Source: a plasmid. From it: a stretch of 64,000 bases of DNA. Below the pieces are notes generated by a model. That model made no database searches. It was not told the DNA's origin and saw nothing but the letters and a program-made list of their open reading frames with translations. The DNA lies in assembly GCF_055900595.2 (NCBI RefSeq), contig NZ_JBVWEU010000002.1; one strand, written 5' to 3'. Shown here piece by piece: positions 7,631 to 58,872 of this stretch. Both the position numbers and the translations under genes were made by a program. Each line of letters opens with the position of its first letter. Position 1 is the first letter of the stretch.

Positions 7631-7639
7631 CGGAAAGAA

Positions 7640-8486
<847 letters not shown>

Positions 8487-11018: not shown

Positions 11019-11103
11019 CAACAGGAGCACGATTATCGCTATATTATCACGGCAATCTTTTCGGGCACTAACCGCAGACTGCGCGTTTCTCACTTTTCGG
11101 GGA

Positions 11104-11952: not shown

Positions 11953-13459
11953 TTCTGTTTCACTGATGTCTATCTCCACGCGCGCAAATAAGCTTGATGG
12001 AGTTGAGCAGGCATTTGTTGCTATGGCGACAGAGATGAATAAGGGGGTGCTGAAGAATCTCGGTCTGCTGACCCCTGAGCTGGAAGAGGCGAAAAGTGGC
12101 GATCTGATGATTGTCATTAAAGGTACCAGCGAGGAGGCGAACGAGCGGACGCTAATAGCGATTGATGAGCTGTTTGCGCATAAAGAACAGGGAGGCCAGC
12201 ACGAAGCACGCTATGCCACGATTGCCAGTGCGAAGAAGCATGCTCCAGAGAGTAATCTGGCGGTGATCTCTGTCAATGGCCTGTTTGCTGCTCGTGAAGC
12301 TCGTCAGGCACTACAAAATAACCTCAATGTTATGCTGTTTTCTGACAACGTCTCTCTTGAGGACGAGCTGGAACTCAAGCATCTGGCACATGAAAAAGGG
12401 TTGTTGATGATGGGGCCTGATTGTGGAACCGCCATCATTAACGGCGCAGCGTTGTGTTTTGGCAATGCAGTGCGTCGCGGCAACATCGGAATCATTGGTG
12501 CCTCCGGTACGGGTAGCCAGGAGCTGAGCGTACGCATTCACGAATTTGGCGGCGGGATTTCCCAGCTGATTGGGACAGGTGGACGCGATATGAGTGAAAA
12601 AATTGGCGGCCTGATGATGCTTGACGCGATTAGCATGCTGGAGGCCGATCCACAAACTGAGATCATTACGCTTATATCCAAACCTCCTGCACCAGCGGTA
12701 GCCCGTAAGGTGCTGGAACGTGCGCGCACCTGTCACAAGCCTGTGGTGGTGTGTTTCCTCGGACGTGAGTCCACCCCTGCGGATGAAGAAGGCCTACAGT
12801 TTGCCCGCGGTACTAAAGAGGCTGCCTTGAAAGCGGTACTGTTGACTGGTGTGAAAAAAGAGAGTCTGGATTTGCATCCGCTCAACTGGCAGCTGATTGA
12901 AGAGGTTCGCTCCCGTCTGACTCCACAACAAAAGTATATCCGTGGCCTGTTCTGTGGTGGCACGTTATGCGATGAAGCGATGTTTACTGCCATGGAAAAA
13001 CTCTCGGATGTGTATAGCAATATTCACCCGAATCCGGCGTTCCGCCTTACAGATCTCAACCGTAGCGTGGCGCATACCTTCCTCGATTTCGGCGATGATT
13101 ATTTTACCAACGGCAAACCACATCCGATGATCGATCCCACCAATCGCATTACCCGGCTCTTGCAGGAAGCACAGGATCCTGAAGTTGGCGTGATCGTGAT
13201 GGACTTCATTCTTGGATTTGGATCACATGAAGATCCGGTTGGAGTGATGCTGGATACAATTGTTGAAGCCAAAGAAATTGCTGCCGCAGACGGTCGCCCG
13301 CTTGAGATCCTCGGCTATGTGCTGGGAACCGACCTTGATACACCGTCGCTGAAAAAACAGTGTCAGATGTTGACCGATGCCGGGGTTATTTGGGCAAGCA
13401 GTAGCACCAACACCGGATTACTGGCACGTGAATTTATATTTAAAGGGGAGGAAGGCTGA
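11912..13459 (+). CDS. FdrA-family protein (YahF-like)
   Basis: 515 aa with CoA-ligase-like glycine-rich motifs (MMGPDCGTAIINGA, GNIGIIGASGTGSQE); length equals E. coli YahF as recalled. Confidence 0.75.
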   Translation: MSIRIVVKKNTYFDSVSLMSISTRANKLDGVEQAFVAMATEMNKGVLKNLGLLTPELEEAKSGDLMIVIKGTSEEANERTLIAIDELFAHKEQGGQHEARYATIASAKKHAPESNLAVISVNGLFAAREARQALQNNLNVMLFSDNVSLEDELELKHLAHEKGLLMMGPDCGTAIINGAALCFGNAVRRGNIGIIGASGTGSQELSVRIHEFGGGISQLIGTGGRDMSEKIGGLMMLDAISMLEADPQTEIITLISKPPAPAVARKVLERARTCHKPVVVCFLGRESTPADEEGLQFARGTKEAALKAVLLTGVKKESLDLHPLNWQLIEEVRSRLTPQQKYIRGLFCGGTLCDEAMFTAMEKLSDVYSNIHPNPAFRLTDLNRSVAHTFLDFGDDYFTNGKPHPMIDPTNRITRLLQEAQDPEVGVIVMDFILGFGSHEDPVGVMLDTIVEAKEIAAADGRPLEILGYVLGTDLDTPSLKKQCQMLTDAGVIWASSSTNTGLLAREFIFKGEEG

Positions 13460-14877
13460 TGAGCCAGACACTGTTTAATCAGCCGCTGAACGTTATTAAT
13501 GTCGGTATCGAAATGTTCAGCGATGACATGAAAAAGCAGAATGTACCGGTAACCCAACTTGACTGGACACCGCCAGGCCAAGGAAACATACAAGTGGTAA
13601 CGGCACTGGACGACATTGCCGCTTCACCACTGGCAGACAAAATTGCAGCTGCTAATCAGCTGGCGCTGGAACGCATTATCCAGTCGCATCCTGTGCTAAT
13701 TGGCTATGATCAGGCGATCAACGTCGTGCCGGGTATGACCCGTAACACTATCCTTCACGCCGGGCCGCCAATCCACTGGGAAAAAATGTGCGGCGCAATG
13801 AAGGGCGCAGTAACCGGGGCTCTGGTATTTGAAGGACTGGCGAAAGATCTGGATGATGCCGCCGAACTAGCTGCTTCAGGTGAAATCATCTTCTCTCCGT
13901 GCCACGAACATGACTGTGTCGGCTCAATGGCGGGTGTCACGTCTGCATCGATGTTTATGCACATCGTCGAGAACAAAACCTATGGAAACCGCGCATATAC
14001 CAATATGAGCGAGCAGATGGCAAAGATCCTGCGTATGGGCGCTAACGACCAGAGCGTTATAGAGCGTCTTAACTGGATGCGAGATGTACTGGGACCTATG
14101 TTGCGCGATGCTATGAAGCTGGCGGGCGAAATCGATCTGCACTTGATGTTAGCGCAGGCGCTGCATATGGGCGATGAGTGCCATAACCGCAACAACGCCG
14201 GGACGGCGCTGCTGATTCAGACGCTGACGCCGTGGATTATTCAGACTGGCTACCCTGTTGAGCAGCAGCGTGAGGTGTTCGAGTTTGTCCTCAGTAGTGA
14301 TTACTTCTCAGGACCAACATGGATGGCAATGTGTAAAGCCGCAATGGACGCTGCGCACGGCATTGAATACAGCACCGTGGTGACAACGATGGCACGCAAT
14401 GGTGTTGAGTTCGGTCTTCGTATTAGCGGTTTGCCGGGCCAGTGGTTTACCGGTCCGGCGCAGCAGGTGATTGGGCCGATGTTTGCGGGCTATAAGCTAG
14501 AGGATTCCGGACGTGATATCGGTGATAGTGCAATTACCGAAACCTACGGCGTTGGCGGTTTCGCTATGGCGACGGCACCAGCTATTGTGTCACTGGTGGG
14601 CGGAACAGTTGAGGAAGCTATTGATTTCTCACGTAAAATGAGAGAAATCACTCTCGGAGAAAACCCCAACGTCACCATTCCCCTGCTTGGTTTTATGGGC
14701 GTACCGACCGCTATCGATATTACACGTGTAGGCAGTACAGGCATTCTGCCGGTAATTAACACAGCCATTGCGCACAAAGACGCAGGGATCGGCATGATCG
14801 GCGCAGGAATTGTTCACCCGCCGTTCACTTGTTTTGAAAAGGCGATCCTCAACTGGCGTGACCACTACTGCCAATAA
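13459..14877 (+). CDS. YlbE/YahG-family protein (DUF1116-like)
   Basis: 472 aa; start codon overlaps the upstream stop (ATGA); length equals E. coli YahG as recalled. Confidence 0.7.
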   Translation: MSQTLFNQPLNVINVGIEMFSDDMKKQNVPVTQLDWTPPGQGNIQVVTALDDIAASPLADKIAAANQLALERIIQSHPVLIGYDQAINVVPGMTRNTILHAGPPIHWEKMCGAMKGAVTGALVFEGLAKDLDDAAELAASGEIIFSPCHEHDCVGSMAGVTSASMFMHIVENKTYGNRAYTNMSEQMAKILRMGANDQSVIERLNWMRDVLGPMLRDAMKLAGEIDLHLMLAQALHMGDECHNRNNAGTALLIQTLTPWIIQTGYPVEQQREVFEFVLSSDYFSGPTWMAMCKAAMDAAHGIEYSTVVTTMARNGVEFGLRISGLPGQWFTGPAQQVIGPMFAGYKLEDSGRDIGDSAITETYGVGGFAMATAPAIVSLVGGTVEEAIDFSRKMREITLGENPNVTIPLLGFMGVPTAIDITRVGSTGILPVINTAIAHKDAGIGMIGAGIVHPPFTCFEKAILNWRDHYCQ

Positions 14878-14989
14878 CAATAACCGGGGCTAACGCAGTT
14901 AGCCCCACAGTAGCGGAAAACGTTGTTTACCTTCAGGGCTGGGCGATCTCCATGATCGCAAACGATGCTTAACCTGTTAAGGAGATTCC

Positions 14990-16540
14990 ATGAACAGCAT
15001 AAAACTAGAATGGAAACGTGGTGACTGGGCGGCTTACTTTGGACTGATGACCAACAATCTGACTAACCTGCTGACAATGATGGGTCTGCTAATTTTTGTC
15101 GTCGGAATCCCTACTGAAATTGTCTATGGACGCATTGCGCCTGCCTTTGGTCTTGCAGTGCTGGCGGCCAGTGTCTGCTACTCCTGGTTTGGTCTACAGA
15201 TGGTGAAGAAAACCGGTCGTAGCGATGTAACGGCGCTGCCGTCTGGACCGAGCGCACCCTCAATCTTTACCGTGACATTCCTGGTGCTGATGCCGGTTTA
15301 TCAGCAAACCAAAGATGCCAACTTTGCTATTCAGATAGGATTGGTGTGGTGCTTTGTCGAAGCGTTGATCCTGGTCGGTGGCTCCTTCCTGGGTGAGACT
15401 ATCCGCAAGATGATCCCGCGTACAGTGCTGCTTTCTTGTCTGTCCGGACTGGGGTTATTACTGCTGGCAATGAACCCGATGCTGCAAGCGTTCGAAGCGC
15501 CGACAGTTTCTTTCATCGTCCTGTTATTGATCTTCATTAACTGGTTCGGTAAGAAGCCGATTTTTCCCCATATTCCTACCGGTTTGCTGTTGCTGATTGC
15601 TGGTACGTCCCTAGCGTGGATATCCGGTTTACAAAGCCCGGAAGACATTAAAGCGTCGATGTCTTCCTTCGGCTTCAACCCGCCGGAAATTCATGTAAGG
15701 AGCTTCCTGCAAGGTTTGCCGCACGCTCTGCCATATCTGGCTTCTGCAGTTCCTTTGGGCCTGGCTAACTACATTTTTGACCTCGAGAACATTGAAAGTG
15801 CGCACGCGGCTGGTGATGAATACAACACCCGTAAGGTCATGATGGCGAACGGCTTTGCCTCCATGCTCGGTTGCATGCTGGGTAATCCGTTCCCGGTAAC
15901 CGTATATGTTGGGCATGCAGGCTGGAAAGCTATGGGCGCTAGTATCTGCTATACCCTCGCATCAGGCATCACTATGTTCCTGGTGCCATTGTTTGGGTTG
16001 GGCGCGTTTATGCTCGCCATTATTCCCATGACTGCTATAGTGCCAATTCTGGTTTTTATCGGTGTGGTAACCGCCAATCAGGTGGTGCGAGAAACTCCTA
16101 AAGTCGAGGTTCCCGTCATTTTCATCTGTCTGTTCCCATGGGTCGCCAACTGGGCATTGACCATCGTTAACAGCGTGATGGGCGCAGCCGGAACATCCGC
16201 TGAGAAACTTGGTAGCGACCTGTTGCACAGCAAAGGCGTCTATTACGATGGACTGATGCATCTGGGAAGCGGTGCACCGCTGGCCAGCATGCTGTGGGGA
16301 TGCATTGCTATCTTTGCCATTATGAATAAGCCGCTGCGCGGGGCGATAGCTGCATCCTTTGGAGCACTGTTATCGCTGTTTGGCGTGATTCACTCCCCAG
16401 CGGTTGGCTTTGCGGAAGGCAGCTCGATTGTGTTTGTTGTGGCCTACCTGATGATGCTTGCTATGTTTGCCCTCAAGCATGTTATTGATAGCCGTGAAAC
16501 AGTGGCTGCGTCTGAGCAGGAAGAGACTAAAACGACCTGA
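14990..16540 (+). CDS. polytopic membrane permease (possibly NCS2/AzgA-like)
   Basis: 516 aa with many hydrophobic segments; sits between yahG-like and carbamate kinase genes; family assignment tentative. Confidence 0.6.
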   Translation: MNSIKLEWKRGDWAAYFGLMTNNLTNLLTMMGLLIFVVGIPTEIVYGRIAPAFGLAVLAASVCYSWFGLQMVKKTGRSDVTALPSGPSAPSIFTVTFLVLMPVYQQTKDANFAIQIGLVWCFVEALILVGGSFLGETIRKMIPRTVLLSCLSGLGLLLLAMNPMLQAFEAPTVSFIVLLLIFINWFGKKPIFPHIPTGLLLLIAGTSLAWISGLQSPEDIKASMSSFGFNPPEIHVRSFLQGLPHALPYLASAVPLGLANYIFDLENIESAHAAGDEYNTRKVMMANGFASMLGCMLGNPFPVTVYVGHAGWKAMGASICYTLASGITMFLVPLFGLGAFMLAIIPMTAIVPILVFIGVVTANQVVRETPKVEVPVIFICLFPWVANWALTIVNSVMGAAGTSAEKLGSDLLHSKGVYYDGLMHLGSGAPLASMLWGCIAIFAIMNKPLRGAIAASFGALLSLFGVIHSPAVGFAEGSSIVFVVAYLMMLAMFALKHVIDSRETVAASEQEETKTT

Positions 16541-16566
16541 ATAGCCTGCAAACGGAAGATAATTCT

Positions 16567-17529
16567 ATGAAAGAACTTGTGGTCGTTGCCATTGGTGGCA
16601 ACAGCATTATCAAAGATAACGCCAGCCAGTCGATTGAGCATCAGGCGGAGGCGGTGAAGGCCGTCGCCGATACGGTTCTGGAAATGCTGGCTTCCGATTA
16701 CGACATTGTGCTGACCCACGGCAACGGGCCGCAGGTCGGTCTGGATTTACGCCGCGCGGAGATAGCCCACGAGCGCGAAGGGCTACCCTTAACGCCGCTG
16801 GCGAACTGTGTGGCGGATACGCAAGGCGGCATTGGCTATCTGATCCAGCAGGCGCTGAACAACCGGCTGGCGCCTCACGGCGAGAAAAAAGCCGTCACCG
16901 TGGTGACTCAGGTGGAAGTGGATAAAAACGATCCGGGGTTTGTCCATCCCACCAAGCCCATCGGTGCATTCTTTAGTGAAAACCAGCGTGATGAACTACA
17001 AAAGGCAAACCCTGACTGGCGTTTTGTTGAAGATGCCGGACGGGGCTATCGCCGCGTGGTCGCCTCGCCGGAACCGAAACGTATTGTCGAAGCACCTGCC
17101 ATTAAGACTCTGATCCAGCAAGGCTTTGTGGTGATTGGCGCGGGCGGCGGTGGCATTCCGGTGGTGCGTACTGACGCAGGGGATTACCAAAGCGTGGACG
17201 CGGTTATCGACAAAGATCTCTCTAGCGCGCTACTGGCTCGCGAAATTCACGCCGACATTCTGGTGATCACCACCGGCGTGGAAAAAGTGAGTATTCATTT
17301 TGGGAAACCCAACCAGCATGCACTGGATACAGTGGATGTCCTAACGATGGCCCGTTACATGCAGGAGGGTCACTTCCCGCCTGGGAGTATGTTACCGAAG
17401 ATTCTTGCCAGTCTGGAGTTCCTGGAACGTGGAGGTAAAAGAGTGATTATCACCACGCCTGAATGCCTGTCCGCGGCACTGCGTGGCGAAACAGGCACCC
17501 ATATTATCCACTCCCAAGAGGAGACGTAA
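16567..17529 (+). CDS. carbamate kinase (ArcC/YahI-like)
   Basis: 320 aa; N-terminal motif VVVAIGGNSI and HGNGPQVG typical of carbamate kinase. Confidence 0.85.
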   Translation: MKELVVVAIGGNSIIKDNASQSIEHQAEAVKAVADTVLEMLASDYDIVLTHGNGPQVGLDLRRAEIAHEREGLPLTPLANCVADTQGGIGYLIQQALNNRLAPHGEKKAVTVVTQVEVDKNDPGFVHPTKPIGAFFSENQRDELQKANPDWRFVEDAGRGYRRVVASPEPKRIVEAPAIKTLIQQGFVVIGAGGGGIPVVRTDAGDYQSVDAVIDKDLSSALLAREIHADILVITTGVEKVSIHFGKPNQHALDTVDVLTMARYMQEGHFPPGSMLPKILASLEFLERGGKRVIITTPECLSAALRGETGTHIIHSQEET

Positions 17530-18626: not shown

Positions 18627-19439
18627 TCAGGGAATGTTCCTGAACACACCCAGAGACTGTCTGTCACACGTGATAAGCCTGTAATACGGGATAAGCCTGT
18701 AATACGGGATATTTCCCCTGAACCCACATCCCTTGTTATGTAGTGCCATAACCTCTGTCCAACGCTGATGCCGTTTTTGGCGGGTTTGCTGTTTAAGGCG
18801 TTCCGGACGACGGAGCGATGCTACAGGCACAGACAGTACTGGCTTAGGTGATTTCTTTGGTGACAACCCACTGGCAACAAGACGTATCAGAGGCATCTGT
18901 CTGTACATCATTCGTTCAGGCGCATCGCCAATATTTTTTAGCCGGTGCCATCGAGCTGCTATCTGTCTGGCCTGAGGTGCACCTTCACGTGATGCTGTCG
19001 CATAGACTCCGCCACGGTCACATGAGACAACCTGTATTTCCGGATATTTTCTGAACCAGGTCGCCAGCGTACTCTGCTCGCAACCGGGAAGCAGGACGAG
19101 GGGACGGTGAGTATAAAGATTGACGATTAACGTACCGTAATGGTAGCCCCGATGCCACGCCCACTCATCAATACCGACATGAGGCGCGCCTGACTGTTTC
19201 GTCTCCGGGGTATTAATAACCCTGCGAAGAAGAGTATCAGCACTGCAACGGAGCCCCACTGCCGTTGCTGCCTGTTTCCCGGCCTCACCTCCGGCTATTA
19301 ATCCCAGTTGATGTTGTAAATTTTGTAACACCTGTGAAGAATGCTGGGAGTGAACCGGCGAAGGGGGCAAGCGACCCGGCAAAAATTTTACGTGAACAAG
19401 CCGGGTTACGGCAGTACCAGTGGCGGACGGAAAATACAA
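18627..19439 (-). pseudogene. ISL3-family transposase, truncated/frameshifted
   Basis: motifs HVGIDEWAWHRGYHYGTLIVNL, DRGGVYA and ARWHRLKN; N-terminal region out of frame and cut by IS1 at 19631; contains an 18-bp tandem duplication at 18672-18707. Confidence 0.6.
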
Positions 19440-19685: not shown

Positions 19686-21992
<2,307 letters not shown>

Positions 21993-24280: not shown

Positions 24281-25150
24281 TCAGGGGGAAGCTGTGGCCA
24301 GCCGGCTGTAATTACGGTTACGTGACAGAATCATGCGCTCCTTCACACGACGCTCCACTTCGCGTTTTACCGCCTCACGATTGGCAGTGAAGCGCCCTTC
24401 TGAGATTTCACGTGTCAGCTGCCGTTTCACCAGGGTGACAATTTCCTGACGTTCCCTGCTTGCATCACGACGCGCACGGGCACGCTTTATTCCCCGGGAC
24501 TTAAGCTCTGTCTGGTAACTGCGGAAACGCTCACGCACAAAACGCCAGGCCTTCGCTATCAGCTCATCCATACTCAGCGCATCCAACCCCTGCTTTTTAC
24601 GCTGTCGGTTTTCCCATTCCACACGACTGCGACGCGCGGCGGCCACCGCATCCTCTGACACATCGAGGGCGGTAAACAGCGACGGTGTGAGTGTGATGTC
24701 GGTCGGAATGTTGCAGCCAATAAGTGGGTCATATTCCGTCTGGTAGGTAATCAACCCCAGCTCTGACAGAAACATCAGGGCACGGGTGGCACGGGTGATG
24801 GAGAGTTTTCCGGCAGCAGACTCCGTCGCCAGTCCGCACTCAATGGCCAGTGTGGTGATGGAGCACTGGACGCGGTTGGCCAGCGGGTCATAGTGGAAAC
24901 ACAGCCCCTGCAGCAGCGCATCAATAGCCCGTCGACGCAGCACCGGTGGCATGCGTCGACGCAGACCACGCGAACGGGCATGCGCCACATGAATGGCGAA
25001 ATCAAAACGGGAAGTGAAGCCCAGCGCCTTTTCCATCAGTTTTTCGCAGAACTTCAGCGTTCCGGCACCTTCACGGGGTGTAAACACCGGATTCGGGTTC
25101 TTTACCTGGCGGTAATACGTTTGTTGAAGATCAGCCACACCATCCTGCAC
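24281..25150 (-). CDS. repA: IncFII replication initiator RepA1
   Basis: 289 aa; [33 protein letters not shown]... through ...[14 protein letters not shown] matches R100/R1 RepA1. Confidence 0.9.
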
Positions 25151-44391: not shown

Positions 44392-45165
44392 TTAAAAATT
44401 GGGTTTAAAATCTTCAGAAACGTTCAGGAATTGTTTTGCCAGGTCGTCCTGCGAAATAAAGCCGTATGATAACGGGCGAACACTGCCCTGTTTCGGGTCA
44501 ACCAGCATCATGGCCGGGAAATATTTCACGCCGAGGCGCTGCGCCTGCCCCTGGTCAGTCCGGGAATCCGGCAACAGCGGATTAATCACACCATCCACGG
44601 AAACGGGAATAACACTCAGACCATAGGTATCCCTGAAGCCATTAATGACCTGCGCCAGCTGCCCGTCGATGGGGTCCTGCCCCCGGTAAAAGAACATGAT
44701 GCCGTAGTGTTCAGCCAGTTTCGCAATGGCCTGTCGCTGCTGCACCTGGTCTGCCGCCAGCTGGTTCCGGACCGTGCCGTTGTAATGGCTGTACTGCAGG
44801 TTATAGTCCAGTTCGGGATGCGCCAGCATGGCTTTTTTGGCGCTCATGGTGAAAAGCCCGGCCTGCTGAGTCCAGTAATTCTGCAGCCGGAAATATTTCA
44901 CAAAATTATCCACGCCGGGATACAGAATGGCTTCGTACAGCGCCCGCTTTGTTGCCGTCTGCAGTGCGGCCAGTTTCTGCATAATGTCCGGCTCCTGACG
45001 GGGGGCTGCAGGTACTGGTTTATTTTCTTTTTCCTTCGGATTTATTTTCTCGTTATACCACTGCCAGCCTGCATCTTTTCCTGACGCCGGAAAAATAAAG
45101 CAGCAGAGTAACAGTGGCAGTAATGCTTTATTCATCTTCATTCCTTTCATCACTTTTTCTTTCAT
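44392..45165 (-). CDS. traF: pilus assembly protein TraF
   Basis: 257 aa with signal peptide; position and size. Confidence 0.9.
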   Translation of the reverse strand: MKEKVMKGMKMNKALLPLLLCCFIFPASGKDAGWQWYNEKINPKEKENKPVPAAPRQEPDIMQKLAALQTATKRALYEAILYPGVDNFVKYFRLQNYWTQQAGLFTMSAKKAMLAHPELDYNLQYSHYNGTVRNQLAADQVQQRQAIAKLAEHYGIMFFYRGQDPIDGQLAQVINGFRDTYGLSVIPVSVDGVINPLLPDSRTDQGQAQRLGVKYFPAMMLVDPKQGSVRPLSYGFISQDDLAKQFLNVSEDFKPNF

Positions 45166-45355
45166 CAGGTTTCTGCAGGTCAGTCAGGGCAGAAAAACAA
45201 AAATACAGAATAAACAGGAGCACACCGGAGTAAAAAATAACGAAAGCAGCAGCAAGTATCTCACCTGCAGTGGTTTCTTTTACCGTATCCCACGACCAGA
45301 TAATTACCGGGGAAATGACAATCGCTGTAATCAAAAGCCGGATGCGTATTCTCAT
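45128..45355 (-). CDS. trbE: TrbE
   Basis: 75-aa membrane protein (MRIRIRLLITAIVISPVIIWSW) overlapping the traF start. Confidence 0.7.
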   Translation of the reverse strand: MRIRIRLLITAIVISPVIIWSWDTVKETTAGEILAAAFVIFYSGVLLFILYFCFSALTDLQKPDERKSDERNEDE

Positions 45356-45442
45356 GAAAGGAGATCACTCAATAACTTCCATCGAGATCGGGTAATAACG
45401 GCGTTTTTCAAGGTAGTTGTCGCCTTTTGTAATAAAATTACG

Positions 45443-46348
45443 TTATGCCGCTTCTTTTTCTGGATTCAGATAAACTGCCTGAATGAGTTCCCAGTCACGC
45501 AACTGTTTGCTCCAGCGCTCAGGATGACGTTTGCGAGCTTCGCGATAAACTTTTTTTCTGGCTTCCAGTATTTGTGCGTCAATTCCGCGATGGCGTTCAT
45601 CCGGAGTAACATACTTAATACCGCTGTGCTTGTGTTCCAGGTTGTACCATCGCGTGAACTTGCTTAACCAACTTCTGGCTTCATCTATGGTTCGAAAACC
45701 ATTCTCTGGCCACCATGGACAATACTTAATCGTCCGGAAGAGCGATTCGGAATAAGGGTTATCATTGCTGACCCGGGGACGGGAATAAGAACTTAATACG
45801 CCAAGCGCGTACATTTTTGCCAGTAACGTACAACTGCGCATTGGTCCTCCGTTATCAGAATGAAGCACGAGATTGCGGGATGAACATTTTTCATTCCATA
45901 CAGCACGTTGAAGCAGTTCTGCCGCATACTGCCCAGATTCTTTCGTAAATACTTCGGCAGCAATAATTTTTCGGCTATAAATATCGACGATCATATAGAG
46001 ATAAAAATGCTGCCCCTTAACCCACGATGGGATATAACTAATATCCCAGCTCCACACCTGGTTGGGGGCTACAGCTTTGAGTACTTCAGGCCGCTTATAT
46101 TGGTGTTCACGGGTTCTCCTTGTCAGTTGGTTAGCTGATTTTAATACGCGATAAAAAGTTGATTCTGACGCGATATAAACCCCTCTGTCGGCAAGAGTCG
46201 GAACAATAATATTCGGAGACAATGATGCAAACTCCGGAGAATTGCATACATCAAGTATTCTTAATCTTTCTGTTTCTGACAGTTTATTCCCCGGGGTACG
46301 CCTTGATGCACCTGGTCTCTGATCTGTATGAACCACACCACCCTGCAT
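45443..46348 (-). CDS. IS3-family transposase OrfB (integrase core)
   Basis: 301 aa with DDE-type motifs; frame is open upstream of the first Met, consistent with frameshift fusion to orfA. Confidence 0.75.
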   Translation of the reverse strand: MQGGVVHTDQRPGASRRTPGNKLSETERLRILDVCNSPEFASLSPNIIVPTLADRGVYIASESTFYRVLKSANQLTRRTREHQYKRPEVLKAVAPNQVWSWDISYIPSWVKGQHFYLYMIVDIYSRKIIAAEVFTKESGQYAAELLQRAVWNEKCSSRNLVLHSDNGGPMRSCTLLAKMYALGVLSSYSRPRVSNDNPYSESLFRTIKYCPWWPENGFRTIDEARSWLSKFTRWYNLEHKHSGIKYVTPDERHRGIDAQILEARKKVYREARKRHPERWSKQLRDWELIQAVYLNPEKEAA

Positions 46349-46467
46349 CCAACGTTGAAGTGTTCTGACTGAAATACCAATACACTGGCAGGCTTGTGTT
46401 TTTCTCGCTCCTGAACTGACAGCCTCGCTGACCAGATTAATAATCTTCTGCCGCTCTGGAAGAGGAG

Positions 46468-47013
46468 TCAGCCTTCCTCGCTGTTGTCCCAGAGGGCATT
46501 GAACTTTTCCCTTAACATCAAAAGAGCAGCTGCTTCCGCCAGAGCTTTATCTTTACGGAGAAGTTCTTTTTCCAGTTCCCGTAACTGGGTCTTTGCTTCG
46601 CGTAATTCTTTATCAGCACGGCGACTTTCTGCCATTTTCATTTCATGAGCCTGAATGGATATAGCTCTCCATTCTTTAACTTGCTCAACAAATAACCCCA
46701 TTCTCCGACAATAATCAGCCAGTTCCATTTCAGATAATGTTGCAGTTTCAATTACAACAGAAAATCGTCGCTCCGGTGTCCATTCATTTCCATCGACAGA
46801 AGATATTTTTTCATTTTCAGGTAACAGGCCTTGTTGCACCAGTTCAAGTCTCCATCTTGCTATTACTGAAGGGCTCAGGTCCAGTTTACGAGCAATATGC
46901 CGTATGGACCAACTATAAGGTGGTAATAACCAGGTAACACCTTGTTCTTTTATATCAATTGGTACTGCATGTGCGGGCATAGTCTCTCTCCTGTGTAAAA
47001 ATCTAGGCGACAA
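46468..47013 (-). CDS. IS3-family transposase OrfA
   Basis: 181 aa (likely start MPAHAV at 46980); DNA-binding N-terminus and C-terminal coiled coil. Confidence 0.7.
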   Translation of the reverse strand: MSPRFLHRRETMPAHAVPIDIKEQGVTWLLPPYSWSIRHIARKLDLSPSVIARWRLELVQQGLLPENEKISSVDGNEWTPERRFSVVIETATLSEMELADYCRRMGLFVEQVKEWRAISIQAHEMKMAESRRADKELREAKTQLRELEKELLRKDKALAEAAALLMLREKFNALWDNSEEG

Positions 47014-47172
47014 CTATGCTGACACAGGGGGATAACATTTGAACAGATCGCTGAATAACATCGATGGAGATCACTTTTGACTCATTTTGTTATTCAGTGA
47101 TCTCCATCAATGTTATTGGAACTTCACAGGTGTGTTGATCTGTATCTTTTGCCATTCCGGTAAAGGATACCT

Positions 47173-48714
47173 ATGCCAACAGTTCCAATTTCTATGAGAA
47201 AACTTAAAGAAATTCTTAGGCTTAAATACGGTGTTGGACTCAGCCATCGACAAATTGGTCGTAGTCTTGCAATCTCCCCTTCCGTTGTATCCAGATATGC
47301 TAATCGGGCGGCTCAACTTGGCATAAAGCAGTGGCCCTTACCTACAGGATGGGATGATACAAAACTAAAACATGCGTTCCTTCAGACCCAGGTTAAGATG
47401 AAGAAGCACTCTCTGCCTGACTGGGCTACAGTACACCGGGAACTGCGTAATAAATGCGTGACGCTGCAGCTACTCTGGGAAGAATACTGTGAGCGTAATC
47501 CAGGCGGTTTTTACAGCTATAACCATTACTGCCGGATGTACCGTGAATGGCTCAAAACCACTTCACCATCAATGCGTCAGGTACATAAAGCTGGCGAAAA
47601 ACTTTTCGTTGATTACTGTGGACCTACCGTTGGCGTTACCGACCCTGAGACCGGAGAAATAAGAACTGCTCAGGTCATCGTAGCTGTTCTCGGGGCATCA
47701 AGTTACACATGGGCAGAGGCCACCTGGTCTCAGCAGCTTGAAGACTGGGTGATGAGTCATGTTCGCTGCTTCCAGTGGTTGGGTGGCGTTCCTGAACTTG
47801 TTGTTCCGGACAATCTGAAAAGCGCCACATCCAGGGCATGTAAGTATGATCCTGACGTTAACCCTACCTACCAGCAGATGCTTGAGCATTATAATGTCGC
47901 AGTTTTGCCTGCGCGGCCACGTAAACCGAAAGATAAAGCCAAAGCTGAAGTTGGCGTTCAGGTTGTTGAACGCTGGATCATGGCCCGAATCAGGCATGAG
48001 ATCTTCTACAGCCTTGCATCGCTTAATCAGCGCATTCGGGAGTTGCTGGAAAGACTGAATAACAAAATAATGCAGAAGTTGGGTTATTCACGTGCAGAAC
48101 TCTTCATCCAGCTTGATAAACCCGCACTGAAGCCTCTTCCTGAAGCCAGTTACAGTTACACCCTGGTGAAGAAAGTCAGAGTTCATGCCGATTACCACGT
48201 GGAAATCGACAAACATTACTACTCGGTTCCATGTTCGCTGTTAGGCCAGCAACTGGAAGCATGGATCTCCGGAGAACTGGTAAGACTCTTCAATCAGGGG
48301 CAGGAGGTTGCTGTGCACCCGCGCAAGCGTACTTATGGCTACAGTACCCGCAACGAGCACATGCCTGAAGCTCATCGACAGCATGCCACCTGGACGCCAG
48401 AGCGTCTTCTGGAATGGGCGGGGCACATAGGCAGTGAAACTCATAGTTATGTGCTTCATATACTGAACTCTCGTCCACATCCGGAACAAAGCTATCGCTT
48501 CTGCCTTGGACTCCTGAACCTTCATAAAAAATACAGTAAAGCCAGACTTAATGCAGCATGTGCAAGAGCTCTGAAAACAAAGGTATGGCGTCTGTCAGGT
48601 ATTAAATCGATCCTGGAAAAAGGTCTGGATAAACAACCTGTTCAGGATCCAAAACCAGATCTGTTATCCACGATGGAACACGAAAACGTACGCGGCAGTG
48701 AGTATTACCACTGA
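47173..48714 (+). CDS. istA: IS21-family transposase IstA
   Basis: 513 aa; N-terminal HTH and DDE core. Confidence 0.85.
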   Translation: MPTVPISMRKLKEILRLKYGVGLSHRQIGRSLAISPSVVSRYANRAAQLGIKQWPLPTGWDDTKLKHAFLQTQVKMKKHSLPDWATVHRELRNKCVTLQLLWEEYCERNPGGFYSYNHYCRMYREWLKTTSPSMRQVHKAGEKLFVDYCGPTVGVTDPETGEIRTAQVIVAVLGASSYTWAEATWSQQLEDWVMSHVRCFQWLGGVPELVVPDNLKSATSRACKYDPDVNPTYQQMLEHYNVAVLPARPRKPKDKAKAEVGVQVVERWIMARIRHEIFYSLASLNQRIRELLERLNNKIMQKLGYSRAELFIQLDKPALKPLPEASYSYTLVKKVRVHADYHVEIDKHYYSVPCSLLGQQLEAWISGELVRLFNQGQEVAVHPRKRTYGYSTRNEHMPEAHRQHATWTPERLLEWAGHIGSETHSYVLHILNSRPHPEQSYRFCLGLLNLHKKYSKARLNAACARALKTKVWRLSGIKSILEKGLDKQPVQDPKPDLLSTMEHENVRGSEYYH

Positions 48715-48725
48715 TACGGGATCCA

Positions 48726-49475
48726 ATGATGAATCATCTTTACGAACAACTGACCGCACTTAAACTCACCGGCTTCCGTGATGCGCTTAAAAAGCAACTT
48801 GCTCAGCCGGGCACATACCAGGAGCTGGGCTTCGAAGAACGCCTGTCATTACTGACAGCAGAAGAACTAACCTGCCGTGAAAACAGGAAGGCAGAGCGTC
48901 TGATCAAACATGCACGGTTCAGACTTAATGCTGAGTTATCAAAGCTGGATTATCGTAACAATAGAGGGCTGGACAGGGCCCTCATCCGTTCACTCAGTCA
49001 GGGAAACTGGTTAACCCTGAAACAAAATATTTTACTGACCGGGGCCACCGGCAGCGGTAAAACGTTCCTGGCATGTGCACTTGGTCATAATGCCTGCCGA
49101 CAGGGATACAAGGTCTACTATTATCGCCTTAAAGCGCTGATGGAACAGTGCTATCAGGGGCATGCTGATGGAAGATACAGCAAACTTTTGACCAGGCTGA
49201 ATAATAGCGATCTGCTGCTTCTGGATGACTGGGGGCTGGAACCTCTCTCATCAGAACAGCGTAGCGACCTGCTGGAAATAGTGGATCTGATGTACCAACG
49301 AGGCTCAATCATCGTAGTGAGCCAGTTGCCGGTGGAAAACTGGTACAAAATGATCGGAGACTCCACACATGCGGATGCCATCCTAGATCGACTGGTTCAT
49401 GGCAGTATCAAGATCGAACTTAAAGGAGAATCAATGCGGAAAATACAATCTCCGTTGACCGAAGGAGATCAGTGA
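48726..49475 (+). CDS. istB: IS21-family helper ATPase IstB
   Basis: 249 aa with Walker A GATGSGKTF and Walker B LLLLDDWG. Confidence 0.85.
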   Translation: MMNHLYEQLTALKLTGFRDALKKQLAQPGTYQELGFEERLSLLTAEELTCRENRKAERLIKHARFRLNAELSKLDYRNNRGLDRALIRSLSQGNWLTLKQNILLTGATGSGKTFLACALGHNACRQGYKVYYYRLKALMEQCYQGHADGRYSKLLTRLNNSDLLLLDDWGLEPLSSEQRSDLLEIVDLMYQRGSIIVVSQLPVENWYKMIGDSTHADAILDRLVHGSIKIELKGESMRKIQSPLTEGDQ

Positions 49476-49634
49476 AGGTAATTTAAAAACGGTTCTGTGA
49501 AAGTGACACGAACCGATCTCCATCGATGTTACTCACCGATCTCCTTCACGGTAATACGCACCGGATAAGAAAATCAATAAAACGGTTCGACGTGAATATG
49601 ACTTTCATCATTTTCCCCGGTTATTTTCCCTACC

Positions 49635-51443
49635 TTACTGTCCTGCCTGTTTCAGCTGGTCAGCAATCTGCTCTTTCACTTTCTGCGTCAGAACACCACT
49701 GTCCGGGATTTTCTGGTTATTCATCAGGTCTTCGTAGAAGTTAGTGAAATCCAGTCTGTCGAACTGAATTTTCTGCAGCTCATCAACCGTAATCCCCCGA
49801 CAGTCAGGATGCTTCGCACTGCCAAAACTGATACGCAGCTGTCCGTTGCGCCCCTGCTGCTGGACTATCTGCGCCAGCTTCGAATCAAACTGACAGTAAC
49901 TGCGTTTTTTCTCCAGGCAGACACCCAGCACTTTCTTCGAACAGAACTCTCCGACACTGACGGTCAGTTTGTTTGATTTTGCTTTAGCCAGGGCTTTTTC
50001 ATCACTGCTGCATTTGGCCAGCCCGATGTCCTGTCCCCAGCCGCTGTCCTTACAGCAGTTGCTGTATCCGGCTGCAGCCTTCTTACAAAATTTCGCCTGA
50101 CCGGTGAAAGCACGGACATCCACCCCGTTCAGCGCCGCAACATCCTTACCTGCTGCGGCCAGTGCCGCCAGCTGAGAAACGGCTTCGGCAAAATCATTAC
50201 TCTTCCCGCTCTGAGCCTTATCGCATTCGCCATCGAGACAGAAGACGTCTCCCCCACAGACCATCACTTTCCCGGATGTTTTTGACTCACAGGAGTACGT
50301 GGCATATTCATGCAGACAGGCACCTTCTTCGGAGTAAAAGGCACACTGGTGTGACACCAGGGTACAGGCTGGATTGTCGGTGTAGGTCTGACAGGTTCCC
50401 TTGTCTGCTGACTGTGTGACATACGTGTCCCGGTATGCCCAGCAGCTCTGGTACATGCTGTATGACTGACCGTCTTTCACCAGCGTCCTGTTCCCGCCAG
50501 CCTCCGTACATTCTGTTTTTGTCAGTTTCCCCAGCTCCTTGCTGAACGGGCAGCTTTCAGACCAGACAACATACGGGGTGTACGAGGCTTTTTTTACCCT
50601 GACAACCAGACGCAGCTTCATTGCCGTATGACGTTTGAATTTTGTATTCCCGACCCGGACGGGGTGAGATGACGTAAAAGCAACACCGGCAGTCAGTGTT
50701 TTCTGTACTGGTGTAAATGAGGCATCTGCTGAGTATTTGGCATTCCAGCTCAGTGGGGTTCCCAGTACTGTAATTGTCATAGGTACACTCTTCTGCAGGT
50801 AAGTACGACTCCAGCTGTAATGCGCATCGACAATTTCACCGGTAACGGGAGAGGTAATGGAGACAACATACTGACCATTCACTTCACGTGCAGGTAGCTG
50901 ACTCATTTCATACTCCAGCGTCCGGGTTTCCCATGTGGTACTCCCCTGCAGCTCCATACGGGCAGTTCGTGTGCAGTACTGCTCCACCTGTAAATCCCGC
51001 TCACAGGTGTAATTCGTGTATTCACTCCGGCTAATCTCCTGCGCACTGCACTGCTGCCCGGTGTTTCCCACAATGCTGTCAGCCCGGTTCACCACATCCC
51101 TGCCGGTCTGGATAAACGGTGCATCCGGTGAAAGAATGTCTTTCGGCTTGTTCATGAATGACTCTGTGATGGTTTTTCCGGTTTCACCGGTCGCCCATTC
51201 CGTGGTGCCGTCATTTTTCAGGCCGCCATCCCCGCCGGCAGTCACGCCACCGTAGTATTTTGTCTCGTCCGGATTCGCGTTATAGCCGGGGATACTCTCC
51301 TGTGGCTTAAAGCCCTGAATACTGCTGCTTCCCTGTCCTTTGATCTGGTGAGCAAAATCAGAGCCGGCCCGGTAATCACTGTTGCTGTCAGCCTGTGCCA
51401 TGCCGGCAACCAGAGCCAGTATCAGAGGTAAAATACGTTTCAT
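49635..51443 (-). CDS. traN: mating-pair stabilisation outer-membrane protein TraN
   Basis: 602 aa, cysteine-rich, with signal peptide. Confidence 0.9.
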   Translation of the reverse strand: MKRILPLILALVAGMAQADSNSDYRAGSDFAHQIKGQGSSSIQGFKPQESIPGYNANPDETKYYGGVTAGGDGGLKNDGTTEWATGETGKTITESFMNKPKDILSPDAPFIQTGRDVVNRADSIVGNTGQQCSAQEISRSEYTNYTCERDLQVEQYCTRTARMELQGSTTWETRTLEYEMSQLPAREVNGQYVVSITSPVTGEIVDAHYSWSRTYLQKSVPMTITVLGTPLSWNAKYSADASFTPVQKTLTAGVAFTSSHPVRVGNTKFKRHTAMKLRLVVRVKKASYTPYVVWSESCPFSKELGKLTKTECTEAGGNRTLVKDGQSYSMYQSCWAYRDTYVTQSADKGTCQTYTDNPACTLVSHQCAFYSEEGACLHEYATYSCESKTSGKVMVCGGDVFCLDGECDKAQSGKSNDFAEAVSQLAALAAAGKDVAALNGVDVRAFTGQAKFCKKAAAGYSNCCKDSGWGQDIGLAKCSSDEKALAKAKSNKLTVSVGEFCSKKVLGVCLEKKRSYCQFDSKLAQIVQQQGRNGQLRISFGSAKHPDCRGITVDELQKIQFDRLDFTNFYEDLMNNQKIPDSGVLTQKVKEQIADQLKQAGQ

Positions 51444-57531: not shown

Positions 57532-58008
57532 TCATTCGGATTTATTCTCTTCAGTAAACTTCCGGATGGTATCCTGTTCACGCTGACGGGTGGCAGACTC
57601 CTGCATTGCATCCACTTTCTCCTGCCAGAGACGCCGGATATCCTGTTCATCCCGACCAGTCAGTTTTTTACCGGACAACAAACGGTTAAGCAGTTCCTGT
57701 CTCGCATCCGGTACGTCTTCAGTCAGACGCATAAGCTGAAGCAGGCTCTGACGGCTGAGGACCATGCGTGATTCCTCCGGTACGCTGTAATAATTAAAAA
57801 TACGACTGAATACCCCACAACAGCAGGCAACGGACAGGCACAGGGATTTCAGATACAGGCCAGAAACACAGAATGTGGCAACACCACAAAGAATAGCTAT
57901 AACTAAAAAGCCCTTACCCAGCGCCATACACAAAGAACCCTGTTTTCTGGATATCCGCTCATGCTCATCCAGAATAAAATCTATTTTTTCATTTTCTGAT
58001 TTATGCAT
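57532..58008 (-). CDS. hypothetical membrane protein (between traR and traC)
   Basis: about 158-171 aa with a central hydrophobic segment and charged C-terminal coiled coil; overlaps the traR 3' end. Confidence 0.45.
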   Translation of the reverse strand: MHKSENEKIDFILDEHERISRKQGSLCMALGKGFLVIAILCGVATFCVSGLYLKSLCLSVACCCGVFSRIFNYYSVPEESRMVLSRQSLLQLMRLTEDVPDARQELLNRLLSGKKLTGRDEQDIRRLWQEKVDAMQESATRQREQDTIRKFTEENKSE

Positions 58009-58222
58009 AGTGTTTCCTCTGCCTTTCCTGATACGCCTGACATTCAACGCACAACGTCACACCGGGAAATATTTTCCGCCGGGCTTCCGGAATAGGATTT
58101 CCGCATGCTTCACAGAGATAAACAGGAATACCATGAGCATTTATTTTCTGGCGTATCCGGTTTATTCCTGTCATGGTCAGTTGTTCTGTCACTGAATATG
58201 CTTCATCGACTTCATCACTCAC
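58001..58222 (-). CDS. traR: TraR (DksA-like zinc-finger protein)
   Basis: 73 aa with C4 zinc finger CEACGNPIP...CVECQ. Confidence 0.9.
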   Translation of the reverse strand: MSDEVDEAYSVTEQLTMTGINRIRQKINAHGIPVYLCEACGNPIPEARRKIFPGVTLCVECQAYQERQRKHYA

Positions 58223-58356
58223 GGAATATTCCTCCCGACATGTTCTGACACGCTACCGCCCATCCCTTTTCACGCACAGGGCACTCGTTTTACAGGCAGA
58301 TTTTGAATACAGAAAGCCCGCCGGCATTGCCGGCTGATATACAACTTCAGGGCCAG

Positions 58357-58872
58357 TTAATTAATACGTGGTTTTCCCCACGCAGACGGTTTAATAACAA
58401 AAAACACGCTGGATGGCTGATGATAAACATCCTGATTATCAATATAAGGCGCTATCCATAATGCTGCCGTCTGCTCACCCGTTCTTAGCGGACGGGGAGG
58501 CGTTACCGGCGCAACTGAACTGACCGGGACAACCGTTTTCACTTCCCGGGCTGCAGTAAACAGCGGGCGAGGTGTCAGCAGTTTCTGCTCCGGAAGTGTC
58601 GTCACCGCAGGTCTGCTGCCGGACGGAGTGGTTGCGGTGATGGTCTGCACCGGCATTGTCCGGAAGTTCCCTTCAGCCAGGCGCGGCAGTGATGCCGCAA
58701 CCGGCTTTGCTTCTGAGGACTGCTCCAGTTTTTTGGCCTTCTCATTGGCCTGCTCCATCGTCATACAGGTATCGGATGTGGTGGCGTTACACTCAAATTC
58801 CGTATTTGTTCCTGCGCAGCCGGAAAGTAATAAGGTTCCCAGCAGAGGAATAAATAAAGAAATCTGTTTCAT
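58357..58872 (-). CDS. traV: pilus assembly lipoprotein TraV
   Basis: 171 aa with lipoprotein signal LLLSGCAG. Confidence 0.9.
   Translation of the reverse strand: MKQISLFIPLLGTLLLSGCAGTNTEFECNATTSDTCMTMEQANEKAKKLEQSSEAKPVAASLPRLAEGNFRTMPVQTITATTPSGSRPAVTTLPEQKLLTPRPLFTAAREVKTVVPVSSVAPVTPPRPLRTGEQTAALWIAPYIDNQDVYHQPSSVFFVIKPSAWGKPRIN

What the first reader, a model, noticed from the sequence alone, without database searches (positions are those of the whole stretch)
45356..49634. Two insertion sequences lodged between traN and trbE inside the tra operon
About 4.3 kb of IS DNA (an IS3-family element on the minus strand and an IS21-family element on the plus strand) separates traN from trbE, which are adjacent in F. 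Everything downstream (trbE through traI) would depend on read-through or an IS-borne promoter, so transfer may be reduced or altered. A degenerate copy of the IS21-type terminal motif at 45361-45391, on the far side of the IS3-family element, suggests the IS3-family element inserted into the left end of the IS21-family element.
Basis: partly seen in the sequence, partly recalled or inferred. Interest (0 to 1): 0.5.

Follow-up and report, generated by a model that had tools for sequence, protein, structure and literature searches.

The report
Nested insertion sequences splitting plasmid gene trbE
Two mobile DNA elements, one nested inside the other, have recently inserted into the small dispensable transfer gene trbE of an F-like plasmid. 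This is an ordinary kind of event, though the inner element appears to aim specifically at the ends of the outer one.

Summary
The IS DNA is real, but it is not "between traN and trbE".

**Outer element.** A 2,581-bp ISEc12 (IS21 family) sits inside trbE, after codon 16.
- The whole insert spans 45343-49560, flanked by a 5-bp target duplication, CCGGA.
- Deleting 45343-49565 in silico restores an 85-codon trbE.
- The restored 2-kb stretch is 100% identical to at least 9 database plasmids.

**Inner element.** A 1,633-bp IS3-family element lies at 45399-47031 on the minus strand.
- It is unnamed by PGAP; its nearest named relative is ISPsy31.
- It sits 56 bp inside the ISEc12 left end, with its own duplication, ATAA.

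**State of the genes.** traN and all downstream tra genes look intact, and both ISs are 99.9-100% identical to other copies, so the event looks recent. The effect on transfer cannot be read from sequence:
- No promoter-like site faces traF.
- An exact RfaH ops site lies upstream in the operon, which could blunt polarity.

**Side finding.** In E. coli this IS3-family lineage is nearly always embedded in ISEc12 ends, at a TTAY-N5-GATCTC repeat. It also occurs in 1.7-kb ISEc12-end "shells" that carry their own target duplications.

**Verdict.** This is a new insertion allele of a known kind, of low to moderate interest.

The parts
49635..51443 (-). traN, intact (602 aa); stop codon at 49637-49635
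   Evidence: NF009010 TraN equivalog, 1459 bits against a cut-off of 1106, full length 1-602. ORF.
49561..49608 (-). trbE 5' fragment, codons 1-16 (MKVIFTSNRFIDFLIR). It now reads into the ISEc12 right tip and stops after 4 more codons. 49561-49565 is one copy of the CCGGA target duplication.
   Evidence: Direct reading. The reconstruction gives an 85-aa TrbE that matches the TrbE of L001 and L003.
45343..49560 (+). Whole insert: ISEc12 (IS21 family, 2,581 bp net) carrying a nested IS3-family element. Tips are TGCGTATT...AATACGCA. The 5-bp target duplication CCGGA lies at 45338-45342 and 49561-49565.
   Evidence: The empty-site reconstruction is 100% identical over 2,000 nt to at least 9 plasmids.
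45343..45398 (+). Outer 56 bp of the ISEc12 left end, cut off from the rest. It holds two of the terminal repeats (reverse strand: TTATTGAGTGATCTC at 45361-45375 and TTATTACCCGATCTC at 45384-45398).
   Evidence: 45343-45399 is 98.2% identical to nt 1-57 of intact ISEc12 copies. Motif positions.
45399..47031 (-). IS3-family element, 1,633 bp, with ends CCCCCTGTG...AAAACGCCG. The 4-bp target duplication ATAA lies at 45395-45398 and 47032-47035. A reading of 1,632 bp with a 5-bp ATAAC duplication cannot be excluded from this window alone.
   Evidence: 100% identical to four other E. coli copies. The end and duplication length are set by copies in other genera.
45443..46980 (-). orfA-orfB transposase of the IS3-family element. 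OrfA is 170 aa (46468-46980). The OrfB frame is open at 45446-46546. There is a -1 programmed frameshift in the overlap, and GGGAAAAG at element nt 521-528 is the likely slip site (inferred).
   Evidence: PGAP annotates identical copies as 'IS3 family transposase, programmed frameshift', WP_252363485.1.
47032..49560 (+). Remainder of ISEc12: inner left-end repeats, istA (47173-48714), istB (48726-49475; PGAP starts it at 48729) and the right end.
   Evidence: 47032-49560 is 100.000% identical over 2,529 nt to the ISEc12 of one of the two plasmid loci L001/L002, and 99.96% to the other. Family models.
45128..45337 (-). trbE 3' fragment, codon 17 to the stop. 45338-45342 is the second CCGGA copy. 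The ORF 45128-45355 is a chimera that starts at an ATG inside the ISEc12 tip.
   Evidence: The TrbE model NF010271 matches only profile positions 14-84.
44392..45135 (-). traF, the first essential gene downstream. It is intact, and its ATG overlaps the end of trbE by 8 nt.
   Evidence: ORF. The traF annotation is colinear in L001 and L003. The reconstruction is 100% identical to plasmids with annotated traF.
58249..58260 (-). Exact ops element GGCGGTAGCGTG (RfaH loading site). It is on the tra strand and upstream of the insert in the direction of transcription.
   Evidence: it is the only exact match in the window. The role of RfaH/ops in F-like tra operons is from PMC7303359 and PMC7593976.

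Best explanation
**Shown**
- An ISEc12 element (IS21 family) transposed into trbE of an F-like (IncFII) plasmid, between codons 16 and 17, and duplicated CCGGA.
- A 1,633-bp IS3-family element transposed into the ISEc12 left end, 56 bp from its tip, and duplicated ATAA. It is related to ISPsy31 and carries no ISfinder-based name in PGAP.
- The site it chose is one of five TTAY-N5-GATCT(C/G) repeats found only in the ISEc12 ends. E. coli copies of this IS lineage are found next to that motif almost every time.
- trbE is destroyed. traN and every downstream tra gene keep intact reading frames.
- Both ISs are 99.9-100% identical to copies elsewhere, and the flanks match uninterrupted plasmids exactly. 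The event is therefore recent.

**Inferred**
- tra transcription from PY must cross about 2.5 kb of antisense ISEc12. It then crosses the IS3-family element in its sense direction before reaching traF.
- RNA polymerase was loaded with RfaH at the ops site upstream, so Rho-dependent polarity should be partly suppressed. Transcripts of the IS3-family transposase genes run the same way and can read out into traF.
- The most likely outcome is lowered but not abolished expression of traF through traI. The loss of trbE itself is harmless.
- The split left end probably weakens ISEc12's own transposition.
For: **Structure**
- Family models for all four IS proteins pass their curated cut-offs.
- PGAP-labelled ISEc12 copies are 99.9-100% identical.
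- The target duplications can be read directly.
- Deleting 45343-49565 gives an 85-aa TrbE and a 2-kb stretch 100% identical, in one piece, to at least 9 plasmids that carry an annotated trbE.
- The IS3-family element is 100% identical to four other copies that PGAP annotates with a programmed frameshift.

**Target choice**
- The motif occurs 5 times in ISEc12 and 0 times in the other 59.8 kb of the window, against a shuffle mean of 0.87.
- 10 of 12 right flanks in the E. coli-collection copies examined (11 E. coli loci plus the window's own copy) read TTAY/TTTC-N5-GATCTC. One of them is a non-ISEc12 site in hyfR.

**Expression**
- An exact ops element lies at 58249-58260 on the tra strand.
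- RfaH and ops are required for full-length tra transcription (PMC7303359; PMC7593976).
- Only weak terminator-like hairpins lie on the tra strand inside the insert.
- That trbE is dispensable for F transfer is from my own recollection of Maneewannakul, Kathir & Ippen-Ihler 1992. The reference is listed in PMC5102898, but I did not read the paper itself.
Against: - No expression or mating data exist for this plasmid.
- The promoter scan found no sigma-70-like site on the tra strand anywhere in 44900-49800. IS-borne transcription into traF is therefore unsupported by consensus matching.
- Terminator-like hairpins are more frequent than in shuffles (12 against 4.0 +/- 2.0), and six of them are on the tra strand within ISEc12.
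- The traF start overlaps the end of trbE. Losing trbE translation could lower TraF even if the mRNA gets through.
- Neither this insertion nor an ISEc12-only version at the same site occurs in PLSDB or in RefSeq complete E. coli genomes. There is thus no sign that the allele has spread.
Confidence: 0.8

Rival explanations
1. One reading: the two ISs lie in the traN-trbE spacer and leave both genes whole.
For: A 75-codon ORF with a strong TrbE match starts right at the IS boundary. A real plasmid, pR14-S7K7-1, does carry ISEc12 in that spacer with trbE intact.
Against: - The TrbE model matches only profile positions 14-84 of that ORF.
- The ORF's ATG and first 13 bases are ISEc12 tip sequence.
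- The missing 16 codons lie at 49561-49608.
- Removing the insert restores an 85-aa TrbE that is 100% identical at the DNA level to intact alleles.
Confidence: 0.02
2. The insert acts as a complete polar block. traF through traI are not expressed from PY, so the plasmid is no longer self-transmissible and is at the start of tra decay.
For: - 4.2 kb of foreign DNA sits in the operon, of which about 2.5 kb is untranslated antisense sequence.
- Terminator-like hairpins are enriched.
- There is no promoter-like site facing traF.
- PY is described as the only known promoter of the operon (PMC7303359; PMC5102898).
- The allele is not seen in any other record.
Against: - An ops site for RfaH anti-termination lies upstream.
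- ISEc12 sits in the same antisense orientation elsewhere in the distal tra region of other plasmids that PLSDB types as conjugative. That typing is predicted from sequence, not tested.
- All downstream reading frames are intact.
Confidence: 0.35
3. The nested pair did not form in place. The IS3-family element entered an ISEc12 copy elsewhere, and the 4.2-kb composite then moved into trbE as one unit on the ISEc12 ends.
For: - No record has ISEc12 alone at this trbE site.
- A comparable composite in ypfH has its own 5-bp duplication, CCTTG. It consists of ISEc12 with an IS3-family relative about 75% identical in DNA in its left end.
- 1.7-kb shells made of ISEc12 ends around the IS3-family element carry their own duplications at four sites. 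ISEc12 ends therefore still work with this cargo between them.
Against: - No second copy of this exact composite exists in 5,426 E. coli genomes. The 12 composites found carry the relative that is about 75% identical.
- Sequential insertion in place needs no extra assumption. The only target motifs on this 64-kb stretch are the ones ISEc12 brought with it.
Confidence: 0.35
4. Assembly artefact: repeated IS copies were misplaced into the tra operon by the assembler.
For: ISEc12 and the IS3-family element are multi-copy in E. coli, and repeats are a common source of misassembly.
Against: Both elements have exact target duplications. Both excisions restore known sequences base for base: ISEc12 at 2,581 bp, and the trbE region at 100% over 2 kb. 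A misjoin would not create two nested, perfectly duplicated targets.
Confidence: 0.03

Closest known systems
ISEc12 (IS21 family) insertions in the distal tra region of other F-like plasmids, e.g. pR14-S7K7-1 (NZ_CP107148.1) and p14408_1 (NZ_LT599826.1)
   Same: The same IS at 99.9-100% identity, a 5-bp duplication, and the same orientation (istAB antisense to tra). All lie within the traN-trbA stretch.
   Different: Those copies lie between genes: in the traN-trbE spacer (duplication GTTAT) and between trbA and traF (GCTGT). They are not interrupted by a second IS. Here the target is inside trbE and the IS carries a nested element.
IS1353 (IS3 family) inside IS1326 (IS21 family) in integron In2 of Tn21 / plasmid R100
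   Same: Same geometry. An IS3-family element on the opposite strand sits in the left terminal-repeat region of an IS21-family element, just upstream of istA (R100 7426-8970 against istA at 9093). It lies right after a repeated end motif (AAATTGACCCAC).
   Different: The elements are not close relatives. OrfA and OrfB of the window element give no tblastn hit to IS1353 at E <= 1e-3. IstA is 23% and IstB 28% identical to those of IS1326. The ends and the duplication also differ.
ISPsy31 (IS3 family, Pseudomonas syringae pv. actinidiae)
   Same: It is the nearest named relative, with OrfB 57% identical over 99% of its length. The 20-nt right tip CAACTACCTTGAAAAACGCC is shared with relatives in Pseudomonas, Vibrio, Marinomonas and others.
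   Different: Relatives in other genera sit in varied targets and show no GATC at the fixed distance (1 of 112 flanks). The E. coli lineage is almost always next to TTAY-N5-GATCTC.
IS elements that change F-like transfer: IS3 in finO of F, and the IS with an outward promoter at the 5' end of the pED208 tra operon
   Same: A natural IS insertion in or beside the tra operon that alters its expression (PMC5102898; PMC8406263).
   Different: Those insertions raise transfer, by removing FinO or by supplying a promoter at the start of the operon. This one is mid-operon, in a dispensable gene, and no outward promoter is evident.
IS1397 / ISKpn1 (IS3 family), which insert only into chromosomal palindromic repeats (from my own knowledge, not tested here)
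   Same: An IS3-family element with a strict preference for a short repeated DNA motif.
   Different: The motif here belongs to another IS, not to a host repeat. The relationship of the transposases was not examined.

Membership tests
IS21 family | Two consecutive genes: istA (transposase) and istB (AAA+ helper ATPase) | tested here: met
   NF033546 at 310.5 bits (cut-off 160). NF038214 at 270 bits (cut-off 200).
IS21 family | Terminal inverted repeats that start TG and end CA, with several repeated motifs inside each end | tested here: met
   Tips are TGCGTATT...AATACGCA. Five copies of TTAY-N5-GATCT(C/G) lie within the first 125 bp and the last 33 bp.
IS21 family | Target duplication of 4-8 bp | tested here: met
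   CCGGA here. GTTAT, GCTGT and CCTTG at other copies.
ISEc12 (the named element) | Near-identity to the reference ISEc12 | tested here: inconclusive
   99.9-100% identical to copies whose proteins PGAP names 'ISEc12 family' (WP_001298859.1, WP_001016257.1). The ISfinder type sequence itself is not available in these tools.
IS3 family | DDE transposase made from orfA and orfB by a -1 programmed frameshift | tested here: met
   - OrfB scores 173 bits against NF033516 (cut-off 160).
- orfB is in the -1 frame and overlaps orfA at element nt 486-561.
- PGAP notes a 'programmed frameshift' on identical copies.
- Frameshifting itself was not demonstrated.
IS3 family | Ends with the canonical 5'-TG...CA-3' tips | tested here: not met
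   The ends read CCCCCTGTG...AAAACGCCG, and TG appears only at positions 6-7. The tips were fixed by 119 of 120 flanks starting with G and by duplications in other genera. This is atypical for the family but consistent across the ISPsy31-like clade.
IS3 family | Short target duplication (3-5 bp) | tested here: met
   4 bp in full copies from other genera (CAAT, CGCT, CTAT). ATAA in the window.
F-type tra operon (traN-trbE-traF order) | traN, trbE and traF are contiguous, with trbE of 85 codons starting about 26 nt after traN | tested here: met
   After in-silico excision the region is colinear and gap-free with L003 (98.3%). It is 100% identical to at least 9 plasmids. R100 shows the same order.
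RfaH-controlled operon | An ops element GGCGGTAGnnTG on the non-template strand, upstream of the genes affected | tested here: met
   Exact GGCGGTAGCGTG at 58249-58260 on the tra strand. RfaH recruitment and its effect on this insert cannot be tested with these tools.

The most novel reading that the evidence does not exclude
The IS3-family element is a specialist parasite of ISEc12.

- It recognises TTAY-N5-GATCTC, the repeat in the ISEc12 ends that is presumably bound by IstA.
- It therefore lands almost only inside ISEc12.
- Recombination between copies in the two ends then leaves 1.7-kb shells: an ISEc12 left tip, the IS3-family element, and an ISEc12 right tip.
- ISEc12's IstA and IstB move these shells in trans.

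The IS would thus gain a second way to move, and would cripple its carrier in the process. The window shows the full-length starting stage of this relationship.
Probability: 0.5. Interest if true: 0.55.

Novelty: new member of a known kind. Interest (0 to 1): 0.3.

Why it matters
**For the plasmid.** The correction is practical. An annotation pipeline would call a 75-codon 'trbE' and miss that the gene is broken. Whether this IncFII plasmid still transfers itself bears on how its cargo spreads. The insert also offers a natural test of how far RfaH-assisted transcription can carry through 4 kb of foreign DNA in the longest E. coli operon.

**More generally.** The tight link between one IS3-family lineage and the ends of ISEc12 suggests sequence-specific targeting of one IS by another. 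If confirmed, it would explain many nested-IS arrangements. It would also give a defined 15-bp target for studying how an IS3-family transposase chooses its site.

Tried and rejected
1. **5-bp duplication for the inner element.** I first read ATAAC with a 1,632-bp element. I revised this to 4 bp and 1,633 bp after 119 of 120 flanks in other genera began with G and full copies there showed 4-bp duplications.
2. **First excision coordinates.** They were off by one base and broke the trbE frame. This was corrected.
3. **Is the inner element IS1353?** A Salmonella hit at 49.5% identity was not IS1353. The true IS1353 in R100 gave no tblastn hit at all. The resemblance is architectural only.
4. **Junction counting.**
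   - The right end of the IS3-family element joined to the ISEc12 right-tip flank was found in 166 of 395 E. coli records.
   - The same end joined to the left-tip flank reached 80% coverage in only 5 records.
   - These counts are inflated by inheritance: five of six further loci sampled were one and the same insertion in a VENN-toxin/adhesin locus. I therefore rely on distinct junction types, not record counts.
5. **Promoter scan.** It found no site on the tra strand.
6. **Literature searches.** Searches for ISEc12, ISPsy31, trbE plus IS, and polar effects in IncF tra operons found nothing on this nested pair or on its target preference.


Full report
**What is there**

The tra operon runs on the minus strand of the window. 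traN is the 602-codon ORF at 49635-51443 and matches the TraN equivalog over its full length (1459 bits, cut-off 1106).

Below it lie four IS genes:
- istA (47173-48714) and istB (48726-49475) on the plus strand. Both pass the curated IS21-family cut-offs.
- An orfA/orfB pair on the minus strand. Its OrfB passes the IS3-family cut-off.

A megablast against PLSDB names the first element. Thousands of records hold it at 99.8-99.9% identity, with proteins that PGAP labels "IS21-like element ISEc12 family".

**Exact boundaries**

I compared the window with two plasmids that carry uninterrupted ISEc12 (L001 and L002).
- Window 45343-45399 equals ISEc12 nt 1-57 (56 of 57 bases).
- Window 47032-49560 equals ISEc12 nt 53-2581 (99.96-100%).
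- The two window blocks overlap by 5 ISEc12 bases (nt 53-57).

The outer element therefore runs from TGCGTATT at 45343 to AATACGCA at 49560. That is 4,218 bp in all and 2,581 bp once the inner element is removed. It is flanked by CCGGA at 45338-45342 and at 49561-49565.

**The insert is inside trbE**

On the tra strand, the 74 bases after the traN stop are a 26-nt spacer followed by ATG AAA GTC... These encode MKVIFTSNRFIDFLIR, which are the first 16 codons of TrbE as annotated in L001 and L003.

Deleting 45343-49565 rejoins these codons in frame to the rest of the gene and gives an 85-residue TrbE. The rebuilt region aligns without gaps to L003 over 3,042 nt.

A 2,000-nt reconstruction, with 1 kb from each side, is 100% identical in a single piece to at least 9 PLSDB plasmids, all with an annotated trbE. 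That result settles both the boundaries and the duplication.

The 75-codon ORF at 45128-45355 that looks like trbE starts at an ATG inside the ISEc12 tip. It matches the TrbE model only from profile position 14 onward.

**The inner element**

The stretch between the two ISEc12 blocks is a complete IS3-family element.
- It is 100% identical over 1,632 nt to four other E. coli copies. It is 96-99% identical to about two hundred more.
- PGAP annotates those copies only as "IS3 family transposase, programmed frameshift" (WP_252363485.1). No ISfinder-based name is attached.
- OrfA has 170 codons. The OrfB frame opens 76 nt before the orfA stop, in the -1 frame.
- The nearest named relative is ISPsy31, at 57% OrfB identity.

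Its 20-nt right tip is exactly conserved in at least 120 places in Pseudomonas, Vibrio, Marinomonas, Aliidiomarina and other genomes. In 119 of 120 of those the next base is G, and full copies there have 4-bp duplications such as CAAT, CGCT and CTAT.

I therefore place the element at 45399-47031 (1,633 bp), with ATAA duplicated at 45395-45398 and 47032-47035.

**Why that spot**

I looked at the flanks of other E. coli copies.

*Copies sampled without regard to their flanks.* The four copies most similar to the window's copy were chosen on the identity of the IS body only. All four sit in ISEc12 end sequence.

*The wider sample.* It holds 12 right flanks: 11 E. coli loci plus the window's own copy. 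Ten of the 12 read TTAY (or TTTC), then five bases, then GATCTC. One of the ten is a site in hyfR that has nothing to do with ISEc12.

*Occurrence of the motif.*
- It occurs five times in ISEc12, all within the first 125 bp or the last 33 bp.
- It does not occur at all in the other 59.8 kb of the window, where shuffles give a mean of 0.87.
- Four of the five ISEc12 sites were seen occupied, and two of them in both orientations.
- Relatives in other genera show no such pattern: GATC lies at that distance in 1 of 112 flanks.

*Shells.* Several E. coli copies are not in a whole ISEc12. They lie in a 1.70-1.72-kb shell, with 33-57 bp of one ISEc12 tip on one side and 33 bp of the other tip on the other.
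- These shells carry their own duplications at four different sites: CCGAT, CAATATA, GCACT and CCTTAA.
- One shell, between trbA and traQ of another F-like plasmid, has no duplication.
- A locus with an IS3-family relative in both ends of one ISEc12 (L007) looks like the precursor of such shells.

*Limits.* This is strong circumstantial evidence for targeting and for co-mobilisation. However, part of my sample was chosen on flank similarity, and many chromosomal copies are one inherited insertion. I offer it as the novel reading, not as the verdict.

**Consequences for transfer**

*Shown*
- trbE is broken.
- traN, traF and the later tra ORFs through traI and traX are full length.
- Both ISs are essentially identical to copies elsewhere.
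- The allele is absent from PLSDB and from 5,426 complete E. coli genomes.

The insertion is therefore young.

*From the literature*
- The operon is described as having PY as its only known promoter, and full-length transcription needs RfaH and its ops site. traS and traT are transcribed constitutively (PMC7303359; PMC7593976).
- That trbE is dispensable for F transfer is my recollection of Maneewannakul et al. 1992. The reference is listed in PMC5102898, but I did not read it.

*Found here*
- An exact ops sequence lies at 58249-58260 on the tra strand, upstream of the insert.

*Inferred*
- RfaH-modified polymerase should resist Rho-dependent termination while crossing the untranslated antisense ISEc12.
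- The IS3-family genes point the same way as tra, so their transcripts can continue into traF.

*Against easy read-through*
- No promoter-like site faces traF.
- Terminator-like hairpins are three times more frequent than in shuffles, and six lie on the tra strand.
- The traF start overlaps the end of trbE.

I rate reduced-but-present transfer as somewhat more likely than a full block. Sequence alone cannot decide between them.

**Comparison with what is known**

- IS insertions in F-like tra regions are common. ISEc12 itself sits in the traN-trbE spacer of pR14-S7K7-1 and between trbA and traF of p14408_1. In both it has the same antisense orientation as here.
- The nested architecture has a textbook counterpart in Tn21, where IS1353 (IS3 family) lies in the left end of IS1326 (IS21 family). 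I confirmed that geometry in R100, but found no detectable similarity between the two IS3-family elements.
- IS3 in finO of F, and the IS at the head of the pED208 tra operon, show that ISs can reshape F-like transfer.

**Verdict**

The finding is a new allele of a familiar kind. Interest is low to moderate. It is raised slightly by the apparent specificity of one IS for the ends of another.

Noticed in passing
45361-45398, 47044-47104, 49529-49543; loci L003-L011, L014, L139-L144: The IS3-family element and its relative that is about 75% identical in DNA are found in E. coli almost only next to TTAY-N5-GATCTC. That repeat occurs five times in the ISEc12 ends and nowhere else in the window. 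One non-ISEc12 site, in hyfR, has the same motif.
   Followed up: yes
L005 1468-3189, L006 1468-3166, L010 1033-2756, L143, L003 5945-7665: There are 1.7-kb 'shells': ISEc12 tips around an intact IS3-family element, with no istAB. They carry their own 5-7-bp target duplications at four different sites, which suggests ISEc12 proteins mobilise them in trans. One shell sits between trbA and traQ of another F-like plasmid.
   Followed up: partly
45399-45418 (right tip of the IS3-family element); loci L019-L138: The 20-nt tip CAACTACCTTGAAAAACGCC is exactly conserved in relatives from Pseudomonas, Vibrio, Marinomonas, Aliidiomarina and others, even though the transposases are only about 57% identical.
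   Followed up: partly
58249-58260 (- strand): An exact RfaH ops element, GGCGGTAGCGTG, lies inside the tra operon, between the ORFs at 57532-58047 and 58357-58872.
   Followed up: partly
L001 2003-4583; L002 1501-4081: Other F-like plasmids have independent ISEc12 insertions within a few hundred bases of this one (in the traN-trbE spacer and between trbA and traF). All three have istAB antisense to tra, which hints at a local hot spot or an orientation bias.
   Followed up: partly
20105-21906 (- strand): A second IS21-family element, with ORFs of 340 aa and 260 aa. The larger scores 320 bits on the IS21 transposase model. The sizes fit IS100, but its ends were not examined.
   Followed up: no
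4156-5292 (+ strand): A 378-codon ORF whose first 227 residues match IS2 TnpB and whose remainder matches the ATPase domain of an ABC exporter. This looks like an IS2 insertion that truncated a transporter gene.
   Followed up: no
18627-19439 (- strand): A partial ISL3-family transposase. It matches profile positions 69-264 of 370.
   Followed up: no
24281-25150 (- strand); 10413-17529 (+ strand): An IncFII RepA replication initiator (607 bits). A seven-kb plus-strand gene cluster includes an FdrA-like acyl-CoA synthetase and is flanked by LysR-type regulators of the AllS/PunR kind.
   Followed up: no
L018 7426-11388 (R100 / Tn21): IS1353 lies in the left end of IS1326 directly after the motif AAATTGACCCAC, which recurs about 40 bp further in. 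The geometry is the same as in the window, although the elements are unrelated at the sequence level.
   Followed up: partly
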